Positions 7,069 to 44,449 of a DNA stretch of 64,000 bases are shown one piece after another. Under the pieces are notes generated by a model. The model was given only the letters and a program-made list of their open reading frames with translations. It did not search any database and was not told the DNA's origin. Source of the stretch: Promethearchaeota archaeon (GTDB lineage: Archaea; Asgardarchaeota; Lokiarchaeia; Sigyniarchaeales; SOKP01); the NCBI GenBank assembly GCA_048939995.1, contig JBHLOY010000008.1:1-64000 (forward strand). Reading direction: 5' to 3'. Position 1 is the stretch's first letter. Each line of letters opens with the position of its first letter. Position numbers and translations under genes: made by a program.

Positions 7069-7468
7069 GAATTAATACACCTTGAAAATATTCTTCAGGT
7101 GTAAAACCAAATATTAAAGCTCCATGAAGTAATTGTAAATTTATTTGATCTGTATTCGAAAAATTGTTATTTCTAAGATCAAATTCGTTGAATTCTTTTA
7201 ATCTTTTATAAATTGAAGATTTAAGTTTTTTAAACTTACCATAGTACCCTCCATAAGCATTGAAAAGATTTAACATCAATTCAATATCTTCTTTAGAAAA
7301 TTTTCTATAGCATAATTCACAAATGACTCGATGATTGACTCCTGAATCATAAAAAGCAGCTCTATATCTGATTTCTTCATTGCAAACATCACACGTTATC
7401 AATTTATGCTCCGGTATATGATTATGAGTTACCTCTGACTCCTTTTTACTTAAAACAATTTGTTCCAC
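7061..7468 (-). CDS. Small zinc-finger protein (CxxC...CxxC)
   Basis: CDVC and CELC motifs. GTG start at 7468 is preferred because AGGTGG lies just upstream (the ORF track starts at 7498). Confidence 0.7.
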   Translation of the reverse strand: MEQIVLSKKESEVTHNHIPEHKLITCDVCNEEIRYRAAFYDSGVNHRVICELCYRKFSKEDIELMLNLFNAYGGYYGKFKKLKSSIYKRLKEFNEFDLRNNNFSNTDQINLQLLHGALIFGFTPEEYFQGVLIHD

Positions 7469-40734: not shown

Positions 40735-43626
40735 TCAATCGACATCTATATATATTGCTGGTTTATAAGGAATAGACTTACTTGATTTATTTTGAGGGTC
40801 AAATTTAGAGTTTATAATAATTTTTGAATTTACCTTGTTTTCAATGTAGCCTTTATATTCTCTTAGCAGTTGTTTCTCATCTGACTTAGGGATAGAGTTA
40901 TCCCAGCTTCGTCTATTTATTTGATTTTTGATAAACGGGATCAGTTCTTTATTTTTCATCAAGTTCGGTTGCTCCTTTAATTCGGATATAATAGCCTTAA
41001 AATCGCCCTTCTTATTAAGTATTAAGCGATTTACATTGTGCTTCCAACCAACAGCAGTGTAGATGTAAATAATTTTTATATTTCGAGTCTTAACTACCTT
41101 TTTTATATTTAAAATATCATCAATAAGGTTTGAAATATAATTAAATTCAATTTCAAGTTCTTTATCAAGATATCTATTGTCTAATCGACCCCAAACTGAT
41201 TTTGAAATAAATCCCTGATTTCCTGAAATTTCCCATAACTCTTCAGACAGATGAGGCATAGTTAATGATATTATTTTAAGCCACTCCCTATAAATTATAC
41301 TGAATACAATCTCAAAGTCATTATAATCCTCGACATACTTTTGTAAATCTTGTATTAAATTAAACGTCTCATAGAAAGATAACTGAAGATATTTCCGTAA
41401 ATTGAAGTCCTTCAATGCATCGTCAGCATCTAAAAAGTTCTGAGCAATTTTTGATACAATTACACGTGCATATTTTGATTGAATATCATTGTAATGATAA
41501 TCGAAATTCTTTACATTTTCAATATGTAGATGCATGAATTCATAAAATCTAGCTATATGGTTTCTAACCGCTTGAATTTCCTTCTCTCTCCAATCCATAT
41601 TAATTCCTAAATCAGCAGTATGTGAAATATAAAATCTAAATAAATCTGCAGAGTATTTAGTCTGTATATCCCCAAGAGAGATTATATTCCCTTTTGATTT
41701 TCCCATCTTTTGACCTTCAATTAGTACAGGCTCTATTAATGTTATAATTTTTGGCCAGTAGTAATTAGGAAATATAGCAACATGATGAAATATGTAAAAA
41801 CTTAAATGATTTGAAATATGCATAATTGCTGTGTGTCTATGATCAACTGGATACCAATACTGAAATTCATCTTGCATCTTGTTTAATAAGTTTTCATCAA
41901 TTCCTGTCTTTTTAGATACTTCTTTTACAGTTCCTTCGTTTAAATAAATAAAATCGAAGAATTCAGGGATTAATTGCTTTGGCTTAATTTCATAATTTTT
42001 GAGGTGGTGGACAATCGTATAGAAACTCATATATATTGTTGAGTCGCTTAAAGATTCAACAATCCATTCTTGGTCAAATGGTAGGTGTGTTCCTAATCCT
42101 CGTTTCCGAGCACATGGTCTCTTTTCTAACCAATGAAAGACATTTTCAAAATTCATCCTATATTTTTTTGGAATGATGCTCATATCAGATAAACATTCAA
42201 AGGCATCTTTTTTCCATTCTCCAGCATCAAAATTGAGGAACCATTGATCCTTAAGAATAGTAACTATTATTTTTTCTCCGCATCTACATCTCAGATTTTT
42301 TGTAACTGGGATATAGATCTTATCCGCTTGATTGCTATTTAAGAGTTCTTCAACAACAAGAGTCACTGCTTCACTAACTGGCTTATCAACATATTCGCTA
42401 CATTTCTCATTTAATACACCGCTATAAAACTCGCTTTTATAGTTTTCGGCAGTTGCTTTATCCAATTTTTTCTTATCAGCCTGTGATTTAACCTCAAATT
42501 TTTCGCAATAAATTTTAGCGGGATAATCTTCAAAATCCTTTAGATTTATTATTTGAATAGGTTTTATATTTTCAATCTCTTTCTTATTCATCTTGAATTT
42601 ATCTAATGACTCAGTGCTTCTTTGTAAATCAATTAAAGCAATGTAATCAAAGGGCGCATGGGCGGGTACAGAATAAACGACCCCTGTAGCTGAGGAAGTA
42701 TCAACGAAATAACCAGGTAAAATGGGTAAATCTTGAGCATTGATAATATTTTTAGCTTTCTTTCCTATCAGTTTTTCTCCTTTAAAGGTTTCAAGGGCTT
42801 TAACTGTTTTATTTTGATTTTCCAATTTCTTTATCGCTTCCTTTGAGATGAACCAGATTTCTCCATCTACTTTTGCTTTTACATAATCTCCATCAGGATT
42901 GATCCATAAATTGGTTACTCCAAATATAGTTTCTGGTCTTAATGTAGCTGGCACTAGAAATCCTTCCTCAAAAGGAAATTTTATACAGATGTATTCGTTA
43001 ATATCAAGATTTAATTCATCACCTCTCGCAATATCATCTTCACCAACAGCATTCATACACCTTGGACAATAGAGTATTGGATATTCACCTTTTTCCAGAT
43101 ACTTCTTTTCTGCTAATTTGTAATACTGCCATTCAATTAGTTTATTATATATTTTATCACCGGTAGTGAATTCCCTCCTCCAATCTATGCTCATTCCAAT
43201 CGACTTAAAGTCCAATTTCATGGTATTTGAAAAATAATTTACAATATTCCAAGGATCAATAAAACTTTCTACTATTTCTTCTACTTTTTTTGGATTTTCT
43301 GTGTGCAATGAAACATAATCCTTCATTCTAGCTATAATTTTTTTATCTTTCCTCTTTATTGATGAAGAAATTGCTAAAACAGGTGTTCCTGTTATATGAA
43401 ATGCCATTGGATATAAAACGTTGTATCCTTTGGCTCGATAATAACGGGCAAAAATATCACCATTAACAAAACTTCTACCATGACCGATGTGAAGAGTTCC
43501 TGATGCATAAGGATAAGGTGATGTAATAAATTTTTTGCCAATTGATTTATCTGGATTTGCTTCAAATATCTTAGCACTTTCCCATCTTTCTTGCCACTTT
43601 TTCTCAATTTCTAGAGCTTTATACAT
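40735..43626 (-). CDS. leuS: Leucine--tRNA ligase, archaeal type
   Basis: PYPYASGTLHIGH, editing-domain ATLRPETIFG and GVVYSVPAHAPFD, ESLSDSTIY, KMGKSKGN. Confidence 0.96.
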   Translation of the reverse strand: MYKALEIEKKWQERWESAKIFEANPDKSIGKKFITSPYPYASGTLHIGHGRSFVNGDIFARYYRAKGYNVLYPMAFHITGTPVLAISSSIKRKDKKIIARMKDYVSLHTENPKKVEEIVESFIDPWNIVNYFSNTMKLDFKSIGMSIDWRREFTTGDKIYNKLIEWQYYKLAEKKYLEKGEYPILYCPRCMNAVGEDDIARGDELNLDINEYICIKFPFEEGFLVPATLRPETIFGVTNLWINPDGDYVKAKVDGEIWFISKEAIKKLENQNKTVKALETFKGEKLIGKKAKNIINAQDLPILPGYFVDTSSATGVVYSVPAHAPFDYIALIDLQRSTESLDKFKMNKKEIENIKPIQIINLKDFEDYPAKIYCEKFEVKSQADKKKLDKATAENYKSEFYSGVLNEKCSEYVDKPVSEAVTLVVEELLNSNQADKIYIPVTKNLRCRCGEKIIVTILKDQWFLNFDAGEWKKDAFECLSDMSIIPKKYRMNFENVFHWLEKRPCARKRGLGTHLPFDQEWIVESLSDSTIYMSFYTIVHHLKNYEIKPKQLIPEFFDFIYLNEGTVKEVSKKTGIDENLLNKMQDEFQYWYPVDHRHTAIMHISNHLSFYIFHHVAIFPNYYWPKIITLIEPVLIEGQKMGKSKGNIISLGDIQTKYSADLFRFYISHTADLGINMDWREKEIQAVRNHIARFYEFMHLHIENVKNFDYHYNDIQSKYARVIVSKIAQNFLDADDALKDFNLRKYLQLSFYETFNLIQDLQKYVEDYNDFEIVFSIIYREWLKIISLTMPHLSEELWEISGNQGFISKSVWGRLDNRYLDKELEIEFNYISNLIDDILNIKKVVKTRNIKIIYIYTAVGWKHNVNRLILNKKGDFKAIISELKEQPNLMKNKELIPFIKNQINRRSWDNSIPKSDEKQLLREYKGYIENKVNSKIIINSKFDPQNKSSKSIPYKPAIYIDVD

Positions 43627-43662
43627 AAGTTCATATCAACTTCTTTATACATTAATTATCAG

Positions 43663-43759
43663 AAAAAACCCACCTATGATCCCTTTCGAATAAATTTCAC
43701 TCCATGCGAAATAATCCACCAAAAATTTAAAAGAAAAAGATTAGGCAGACTTATTCCGC
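43663..43759 (-). promoter_or_regulatory. Putative leuS attenuator RNA (alternative hairpins plus U6 tract)
   Basis: GCGGA/UCUGC short stem competes with a long helix UCUGCCUA-AUCUUUUUC : GAAAGGGAU-CA-UAGGUGGG that is followed by UUUUUU. Confidence 0.65.
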
Positions 43760-43849
43760 TTAAAGTAATAATAATAACACTGCAAGCAAATCATCTAACC
43801 AGGATCTTGACTTTATGAATGAATGTGAAGCAGTATTATTTGAAATCAT
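43760..43849 (-). CDS. Putative leuS leader peptide (29 aa, Leu-rich)
   Basis: MISNNTASHSFIKSRSWLDDLLAVLLLLL*. 8 Leu in the last 12 codons. TTTATA box about 24 nt upstream of the ATG. Confidence 0.75.
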   Translation of the reverse strand: MISNNTASHSFIKSRSWLDDLLAVLLLLL

Positions 43850-43942
43850 TATATAATAATCACTTTTTTTAATATAAAAATTTTTTCTATCAAATCATTA
43901 AATATTTATCCAAAGAGCTATTGATAAGTTTAAAAATCAATC

Positions 43943-44449
43943 GTGATACAAACTATGGATAAAAAAGTGTTAATTGCATATTATTCTCTTACAGGTAACA
44001 CACAATTCATTGCAGAAGCAATCCAAGAAGCTCTTCAAGTTGATATCGAAGAATTAAAACCAGTTAAAGAACTTAATCCTAATAGTTCGATGAGATTTAT
44101 GTGGGGTGGAATGCAAGCAACAATGAAAATGAAACCAGATTTATATCCAACTGGGAAAAATCCTCTTGATTATGATATAATTTTCTTAGGTACCCCAGTT
44201 TGGGCTTGGACTTTTTCACCTCCTTTAAGAAAATATATATCATTGTTTGATCTTTCTACTAAAAAGGTAGCAATTTGGGTTTGTTGTGCAGGAGATGGTA
44301 AGAAAGCGTTAGATCGATTTAAAGAGGCTTTGAAGGAAACTCAAATCCTTGGAACGAATATATTTCAGCAACCATTAAATAATAACTCTAAAGAGGAGAA
44401 AGAAAGAGCAATCTCTTGGGCGAGTGAGATTGTTAATAAGCTCTCTTAA
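43943..44449 (+). CDS. Flavodoxin-like protein
   Basis: IAYYSLTGNT, FLGTPVWA. Confidence 0.9.
   Translation: MIQTMDKKVLIAYYSLTGNTQFIAEAIQEALQVDIEELKPVKELNPNSSMRFMWGGMQATMKMKPDLYPTGKNPLDYDIIFLGTPVWAWTFSPPLRKYISLFDLSTKKVAIWVCCAGDGKKALDRFKEALKETQILGTNIFQQPLNNNSKEEKERAISWASEIVNKLS

What the first reader, a model, noticed from the sequence alone, without database searches (positions are those of the whole stretch)
43626..43880. Leu-codon leader peptide and alternative hairpins upstream of leuS: an apparent ribosome-mediated attenuator in an archaeon
Seen in sequence: a minus-strand TTTATA box (43878-73) lies about 24 nt before an ATG (43849), implying a leaderless start. The ORF reads MISNNTASHSFIKSRSWLDDLLAVLLLLL*, ending TTA TTA TTA TTA CTT TAA, with 8 Leu in the last 12 codons. 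Right after the stop, GCGGA (43759-55) can pair with UCUGC (43749-45). Alternatively UCUGCCUA-AUCUUUUUC (43749-33) pairs with GAAAGGGAU-CA-UAGGUGGG (43687-69), with an inner UAAAUUUU/GAAAUUUA helix and UUUUUU (43668-63) immediately after, 36 nt before the leuS ATG. Established: this is the layout of bacterial attenuators (leuL, trpL, and pheM in front of the synthetase operon pheST). I know of no well-established equivalent for archaeal aminoacyl-tRNA synthetase genes. Inference: a ribosome reaching the stop masks GCGGA so the long terminator forms, while stalling on Leu codons lets the short stem disrupt it and allows readthrough.
Basis: partly seen in the sequence, partly recalled or inferred. 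Interest (0 to 1): 0.92.

Follow-up and report, generated by a model that had tools for sequence, protein, structure and literature searches.

The report
Leucine-sensing leader before Asgard leuS
A tiny upstream reading frame ending in leucine codons, followed by an RNA switch, sits in front of the second leucyl-tRNA synthetase gene of this Asgard archaeon and of all 43 family members checked; it looks like the ribosome-based amino-acid gauge of bacteria, which I found no published report of in archaea, but it probably ends transcription by the archaeal U-tract route and not by a bacterial-type hairpin terminator.

Summary
The 29-codon Leu-tailed ORF (43849-43760) lies before 43 of 43 archaeal-type leuS genes checked in this Lokiarchaeia family, before three separate LeuRS lineages, and changes length in whole codons. 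Paralogues with Ile- or Val-rich tails precede other genes; a model finds the element in 107 of 125 family genomes and in none of the other families searched. The conserved alternative fold is a 15-bp helix A:C (43759-44 with 43720-06; 11 of 12 pairs with double changes), not the 5-bp stem. The U6 after the long hairpin is not conserved, whereas the U-rich tract B (43740-21) inside the A:C loop is. The regulated gene is an accessory LeuRS; a bacterial-type LeuRS without this leader lies elsewhere in the genome. Best reading: a ribosome reaching the stop masks A and leaves B open to the termination nuclease FttA/aCPSF1; stalling on Leu lets A:C form and allows read-through. Leu sensing is about 85% likely, this output about 45%. 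Nothing is shown experimentally. This scan noted the same element in another genome before (e1-5498619).

The parts
43873..43878 (-). TATA-like box, preceded by an A-rich BRE-like run; start site predicted at or within a few nt of the ATG (leaderless or nearly so)
   Evidence: a TATA-like word starts 28-35 nt before the ATG in 64 of 72 family elements. The start site itself is inferred.
43760..43849 (-). Leader ORF, 29 codons, 8 Leu in the last 12; its stop abuts segment A
   Evidence: 43/43; frame test; amino-acid match to downstream gene
43830..43840 (-). 5' strand of helix P0 inside the leader ORF (codons 4-7)
   Evidence: own-partner duplex -13.5 versus cross-partner -9.0 kcal/mol, better in 64/72
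43773..43783 (-). 3' strand of helix P0 (Ala-Val-Leu-Leu codons); may close the ORF to further ribosomes after the first has passed (inference)
43744..43759 (-). Segment A: begins right after the stop; pairs first with C, later with D and E; first 9-10 nt lie under a ribosome on the stop codon
   Evidence: footprint from PMC7261190
43721..43740 (-). Segment B: conserved U-rich tract (U5, U4, U5); candidate FttA/aCPSF1 terminator; in the loop of A:C or paired with D. Predicted premature 3' end near 43724-43723
   Evidence: rules from PMC11616081 and PMC8716108
43706..43720 (-). Segment C: complement of A; A:C is the early, covarying helix (proposed read-through state)
43669..43698 (-). Segment D: complement of B and of the 3' end of A; forms the long late hairpin
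43660..43668 (-).
40735..43626 (-). Archaeal-type leucyl-tRNA synthetase, 963 aa, uninterrupted; the accessory copy (bacterial-type leuS at G000:C23:45103)

Best explanation
A ribosome-read leucine gauge that controls how much of the accessory archaeal-type LeuRS is made. Shown by comparison: the ORF, its Leu tail, helices P0, A:C and B:D, and the U-rich tract B are conserved. Inferred: (1) a ribosome starts at the 5' AUG and follows RNA polymerase. (2) With plenty of charged tRNA-Leu it reaches the stop and covers the first 9-10 nt of A, so A:C cannot form; tract B stays single-stranded next to the polymerase and the termination nuclease FttA/aCPSF1 cuts near 43724; transcripts that escape fold B:D and expose E as a weaker second site. 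(3) When charged tRNA-Leu is short (starvation, or failure of the bacterial-type LeuRS), the ribosome is delayed upstream, A:C forms and closes B into a loop, the polymerase reads on, and the leader then settles into the long AB:DE hairpin that hides both pyrimidine tracts. Here hairpins would act against termination. Odds by layer: translated, Leu-sensing cis switch 0.85; more leuS on Leu shortage 0.75; output by FttA-type termination at B 0.45.
For: Conservation 43/43 in four genera. The element precedes three separate LeuRS lineages, including the bacterial-type gene in genus g14, where no archaeal-type gene was found (tree). The tail follows the gene: Leu 7.2 and Ile 0 per 12 codons before archaeal-type leuS, Ile 4.9 before an FrhB-TrmB gene, Val 8 before an acyl-CoA dehydrogenase. 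A:C: 91.6% of cells paired, 11/12 pairs with double changes, 0/500 shuffles as high. Masking to stop+8 weakens the early fold from -17.1 to -5.1 kcal/mol on average. The stop ends within -6 to +9 nt of the start of A in all 72. Only about 2.6 of 7.5 Leu codons lie close enough for a stalled ribosome to touch A, so stalling mostly spares A:C. B holds a U4 run in 68/72 and two or more in 49/72, E none in 50/72; the published FttA pattern (U at -23, U-rich at -30 to -36) peaks on B in 45/72 and reaches at most 7/72 from position +76 onward. The genome encodes FttA/aCPSF1 and its gene ends are U-rich without hairpins.
Against: No transcript, ribosome or reporter data. Timing is tight: at the best FttA register the polymerase is at A+57, when most of C is still inside it, and A:C completes only about 10 nt later. 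A ribosome on the stop may itself exclude FttA (hypothesis in PMC11616081). B is U-rich partly because it must pair with D, and the genome is AT-rich, so the register match is not independent. The model gives D and E only a secondary role although B:D is conserved. One paralogue precedes an acyl-CoA dehydrogenase-etf operon, for which the opposite direction would be more natural. Covariation counts are inflated by kinship, and alignment A4 was fitted to the A:C structure.
Confidence: 0.45

Rival explanations
1. Same sensor, but the output is after transcription: the two folds set mRNA decay (nuclease access to B, C or E) or how ribosomes reach the leuS start, for example by re-initiation across the long hairpin.
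For: The long AB:DE hairpin is the most stable end state (-29.4 versus -17.1 kcal/mol) and can form only after E is made; A:E pairing shows weak covariation (own partner better in 49/72); Shine-Dalgarno words are rare in this genome, so initiation is poorly understood; in a few leaders freed E can pair near the start (L011, L018).
Against: The leuS start lies 121-184 nt after A, outside both folds, and its mean accessibility is the same in both states (0.61 versus 0.57). P0 would tend to silence the ORF on finished transcripts (inference).
Confidence: 0.22
2. One reading: a ribosome on the stop lets B:D form, and B:D plus the following U-run ends transcription near 43665 like a bacterial intrinsic terminator; A:C prevents it.
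For: In this genome B:D is followed directly by U6; B:D is conserved (84% paired) and takes the 3' end of A, so it excludes A:C; it gives D a direct job; E is pyrimidine-leaning in many members.
Against: U4 or more after the hairpin in only 14/73, mean 4.1 U in 10 nt, about the background after gene ends; purine-rich tail in g14; archaeal terminators are reported not to need hairpins (PMC8716108); hairpins of -10 kcal/mol or better at only 3% of gene ends here.
Confidence: 0.16
3. Opposite direction: the A:C state is off and passage of the ribosome switches the gene on, so leuS and the paralogous targets are induced when branched-chain amino acids are plentiful (or a stall on the last codons masks A, as in mycobacterial poly-Cys leaders).
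For: The cognate run reaches to within 2-9 nt of A in 71/72; in A:C the U-tract is displayed in a loop and in B:D it is hidden; one target is a catabolic-type acyl-CoA dehydrogenase-etf operon; leuA and ilvC were not found in this 98%-complete genome, so it may live on imported amino acids.
Against: In g14 the element controls the only LeuRS found, where positive feedback makes little sense; two thirds of the Leu codons are too far upstream to mask A.
Confidence: 0.1
4. An RNA-only element (protein- or ligand-binding leader); the Leu/Val codons are a by-product of helix P0 and the ORF is not a sensor.
For: Part of the Leu/Val run is the 3' strand of the covarying helix P0; for the Streptomyces ilvB leader, codon changes had no effect on regulation (PMC1262725).
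Against: The P0 loop changes in steps of three in 58/64; only 10% of shuffled bodies are free of stops; the tail amino acid follows the downstream gene; the last Leu codons lie outside P0.
Confidence: 0.07

Closest known systems
Predicted classical attenuators upstream of leuS and trpS2 in Streptomyces (Seliverstov et al. 2005, PMC1262725); E. coli pheM-pheST, leuL, trpL (own knowledge)
   Same: Short leader ORF with cognate codons near the stop, mutually exclusive helices starting at the stop, target is an aminoacyl-tRNA synthetase.
   Different: No conserved GC hairpin plus U-run; the conserved U-tract lies in the loop of the early helix; TATA-type promoter with the AUG at the 5' end; extra helix inside the ORF; no Rfam family matched.
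Leaderless poly-Cys short-ORF attenuators of mycobacteria, the 'ribulon' (Canestrari et al., bioRxiv 10.1101/834739)
   Same: Leaderless short ORF ending in a cognate run at the stop; several copies in a genome before different genes.
   Different: [quoted passage not shown]
Auxiliary TrpRS of Streptomyces coelicolor under ribosome-mediated attenuation (Vecchione and Sello 2010; own knowledge, paper not held); Bacillus thrZ/tyrZ under T-boxes (own knowledge)
   Same: A second synthetase copy under control of tRNA charging while a housekeeping copy carries no such leader.
   Different: Archaeal host; the housekeeping copy is bacterial-type and the regulated copy archaeal-type; no inhibitor is known.
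FttA/aCPSF1-dependent archaeal terminators (PMC11616081, PMC8716108)
   Same: Two or more U4 tracts within about 20 nt; U at -23 and U-rich at -30 to -36; enzyme present in the genome; the Lokiarchaeal orthologue works on such tracts.
   Different: Known cases lie at gene ends or between operon genes; control of such a site by a leader ribosome and an RNA switch was not found in the papers searched.
Rfam leuA-Halobacteria (RF03001)
   Same: Archaeal RNA motif at a leucine gene.
   Different: No match in this genome; seven copies read show no Leu-rich leader ORF. Not a precedent.

Membership tests
Classical ribosome-mediated transcription attenuator (trpL/leuL/pheM type) | Short conserved leader ORF enriched in the cognate codon | tested here: met
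   43/43 leuS leaders; 7.2 Leu per last 12 codons; frame kept
Classical ribosome-mediated transcription attenuator (trpL/leuL/pheM type) | Mutually exclusive helices placed so that ribosome position selects between them | tested here: met
   A:C versus AB:DE; covariation; geometry
Classical ribosome-mediated transcription attenuator (trpL/leuL/pheM type) | Intrinsic terminator: stable hairpin followed at once by a U-run | tested here: not met
   Present in this genome, but U4 or more in only 14/73 members; absent in g14
Classical ribosome-mediated transcription attenuator (trpL/leuL/pheM type) | Read-through depends on charging of the cognate tRNA and on translation of the leader | not testable with these tools
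   Needs reporter, Term-seq or Ribo-seq
Classical ribosome-mediated transcription attenuator (trpL/leuL/pheM type) | Homology to a described leader family (Rfam Leu_leader and kin) | tested here: not met
   Only two sub-threshold snoRNA matches
Leaderless short-ORF translational attenuator (mycobacterial poly-Cys type) | Leaderless ORF with cognate run at its C-terminus | tested here: inconclusive
   Run at the stop is met; TATA spacing fits a start at or a few nt before the AUG, start site not mapped
Leaderless short-ORF translational attenuator (mycobacterial poly-Cys type) | [quoted passage not shown] | tested here: not met
   Start region accessibility 0.61 versus 0.57 in the two states
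FttA/aCPSF1-dependent terminator | Two or more U4 tracts with the -23 and -30 to -36 spacing | tested here: met
   Three tracts in the window; two or more in 49/72; register peak 45/72. Caveat: AT-rich genome, and B must also pair with D
FttA/aCPSF1-dependent terminator | FttA/aCPSF1 encoded | tested here: met
   TIGR03675 over cut-off at G000:C28:156541
FttA/aCPSF1-dependent terminator | Cleavage and a 3' end at the tract | not testable with these tools
   Needs 3'-end mapping or in vitro transcription
T-box riboswitch | Stem I with specifier loop and the T-box antiterminator bulge | tested here: not met
   No Rfam match; no such helices in the consensus folds

The most novel reading that the evidence does not exclude
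One Lokiarchaeia family runs a multi-gene, branched-chain-amino-acid 'ribulon' in which a leader ribosome gates the CPSF73-like termination nuclease FttA/aCPSF1 through an RNA switch: attenuation with reversed grammar (hairpin protects, naked U-tract terminates), used to induce a back-up LeuRS, a putative redox-sensing regulator and a family of unknown 45-70 aa proteins.
Probability: 0.4. Interest if true: 0.9.

Novelty: new variant of a known kind. Interest (0 to 1): 0.78.

Why it matters
[quoted passage not shown] A compact 230-nt cassette with covarying helices and natural Leu, Ile and Val variants makes the open question directly testable in Methanococcus, where Lokiarchaeal aCPSF1 already complements (PMC8716108): can a ribosome control archaeal termination in a nutrient-dependent way? 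[quoted passage not shown]

Tried and rejected
Microsatellite or chance ORF: rejected. The 5-bp stem as antiterminator, or as a mini-terminator before B (it is the single hit of the terminator scan): not conserved. Conserved U-run after the long hairpin: rejected. Occlusion of the leuS start: no difference between states. Known Rfam family: none. leuA-Halobacteria as archaeal precedent, recalled from memory: the family exists but has no Leu-rich ORF in seven copies. Cognate leaders before other synthetases of this genome: none seen before the eight or so other synthetase-like genes inspected, including bacterial-type leuS, except pheS; not all synthetases were located. The element outside family f1: not found in 24 other genomes of the class or 120 other genomes of the phylum (strict filters lose weak matches). 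Identity of the small downstream proteins: no Pfam, NCBIfam or Atlas hit. A pseudoknot of A:C with the 8-bp B:D core cannot be excluded as an intermediate, but the full B:D helix takes the 3' end of A, so the complete folds exclude each other. Two older papers recalled from memory (Methanothermobacter trp leader, Streptomyces auxiliary TrpRS) were not held, so a published archaeal precedent may have been missed.
Full report
Observation. Named close relatives of this protein are mostly Promethearchaeota, that is Lokiarchaeia. Among 1310 TATA-preceded upstream ORF candidates of the genome this one has the strongest single-amino-acid tail, and the amino acid matches the gene.

Conservation of the ORF. 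Every archaeal-type leuS of the same family with enough upstream DNA carried the leader: 18, 18 more and 7, from four genera. Five archaeal-type leuS genes of other families did not. In the 24 leaders tabulated, lengths run from 26 to 32 codons. Leu codons vary synonymously. The other two frames hold stops in 72/72 and 65/72 elements, only 10% of shuffled bodies are stop-free, and the loop of a helix inside the ORF changes in steps of three in 58 of 64. ORFs were picked by requiring a start and a stop near the element, so these tests are not fully independent, but together they argue for translation and against a microsatellite.

Two LeuRS genes. The genome also has a bacterial-type leuS (G000:C23:45103) without such a leader. 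The bacterial type was found in 135 of 151 genomes of the class, the archaeal type over its cut-off in 70, so the regulated gene is the accessory one. The element precedes three separate LeuRS lineages on a tree: the window's clade, a clade 32% identical to it, and the bacterial-type gene in three genomes of genus g14, where no archaeal-type gene was found. The link is thus to the function and not to one gene lineage; the tree does not give the order of events.

RNA anatomy. After the stop come five segments: A (43759-44), B (43740-21, U-rich), C (43720-06), D (43698-69), E (43668-60). A pairs with C early (15 bp, -18.7 kcal/mol, z -3.5); later A and B pair with E and D in one long hairpin (-29.2, z -3.6). 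A:C is the consensus fold, with double changes at 11 of 14 pairs on an unfitted alignment and 11 of 12 on 74 sequences fitted to it. B:D is 84% paired. Own-partner against cross-partner duplex energies support A:C (70/72), B:D (62/72) and a helix P0 inside the ORF (64/72), A:E weakly (49/72), and a control pair not at all (32/72). Kinship inflates all such counts.

A family of elements. A covariance model found the element in 107 of 125 genomes of the family, often two to four times, and not in the other families searched. The 62 further hits fetched all have a 20-32 codon ORF in the same place, nearly all ending in branched-chain residues: Ile-rich before an FrhB-TrmB fusion, mixed Val/Leu/Ile before unknown 45-70 aa ORFs, Val-rich once before an acyl-CoA dehydrogenase-etf operon. 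This genome has one paralogue on contig C11. leuA and ilvC were not found in it.

Direction. Archaeal ribosomes protect 15-16 nt from the first P-site base (PMC7261190), so a ribosome on the stop covers 9-10 nt of A. Masking that stretch lowers the early fold from -17.1 to -5.1 kcal/mol on average. That A:C is the on state rests on the expected feedback for a synthetase, strongest in g14; it is inference.

Output. Gene ends in this genome are U-rich with no excess of hairpins. Segment B holds two or more U4 tracts in 49 of 72, the minimal aCPSF1 site reported in PMC8716108, where the Lokiarchaeal enzyme behaved alike. The structural rule for FttA (U at -23, U-rich at -30 to -36; PMC11616081) peaks on B in 45 of 72 elements, and FttA is encoded. 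I therefore favour termination at B, cut near 43724, prevented by A:C. Weak points: at that register most of C is still inside the polymerase, a ribosome on the stop might block FttA, B's U content is also explained by pairing with D, and D and E get only a secondary role. Occlusion of the leuS start is unlikely, but control of decay or re-initiation remains open.

Comparison. It works like a bacterial leader-peptide attenuator, closest to those predicted before leuS and trpS2 in Streptomyces (PMC1262725) and, in its leaderless start and multi-gene use, to the mycobacterial poly-Cys leaders. It fails the defining terminator test of the classical family and matches no Rfam model, so I do not file it as a member. 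Ten literature searches found no report of such a leader in archaea; the library is incomplete and two recalled papers were not held. Rfam leuA-Halobacteria is not a precedent. Earlier notes of this scan describe the same element in another genome (e1-5498619), a Phe leader before pheS in Lokiarchaeia (e1-2188069), which I found in this genome too, and similar leaders in other archaeal groups, which I did not check.

Verdict. All function is inferred from sequence. Interest 0.78.

Noticed in passing
G000:C28:7582-7499 (minus), upstream of pheS at 7295: TTG-started 27-codon ORF with five Phe in six codons near its end and a -18 to -19 kcal/mol hairpin over its stop: a second cognate leader in this genome, with a different RNA sequence.
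   Followed up: partly
L053:745-1160 (G000:C11 about 338160-337745, minus): Paralogue of the element with a Val/Ile tail in front of a 61-64 aa ORF with a perfect Shine-Dalgarno word; related 45-70 aa ORFs with a P[AG]E motif follow the element in many relatives, mostly facing the same aminotransferase gene; no family hit.
   Followed up: partly
L122:489-1940 and 20 or so similar loci: About 480-aa fusion of a ferredoxin-FrhB (F420 oxidoreductase beta) part with a C-terminal TrmB-like helix-turn-helix, under Ile-rich copies of the element; possibly a redox-sensing regulator.
   Followed up: partly
L164 and L165: Two copies of the element in tandem, each with its own leader ORF and small downstream ORF, one with a mixed tail and one Leu/Val-rich.
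   Followed up: no
L162:1-2650: Val-rich copy before an acyl-CoA dehydrogenase followed by etf-like genes; the enzyme's first 30 residues resemble the small ORFs, as if the operon was inserted behind one.
   Followed up: partly
G000:C23:45103-47889 (L051): Bacterial-type LeuRS is the near-universal one in this class (135/151); the archaeal type is patchy (70/151).
   Followed up: yes
whole genome G000: leuA and ilvC not found in a 98%-complete genome; Shine-Dalgarno words rare (GGAGG before 3% of genes).
   Followed up: partly
window 43943-44449 (plus): Flavodoxin-like gene transcribed away from the leader; its promoter must share the roughly 90-nt gap with the leader's promoter.
   Followed up: no
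L014 (leader at 1258-1503): One leuS leader has lost the end of D and all of E by a deletion yet keeps the ORF, A, B and C, a natural hint that E is dispensable.
   Followed up: no
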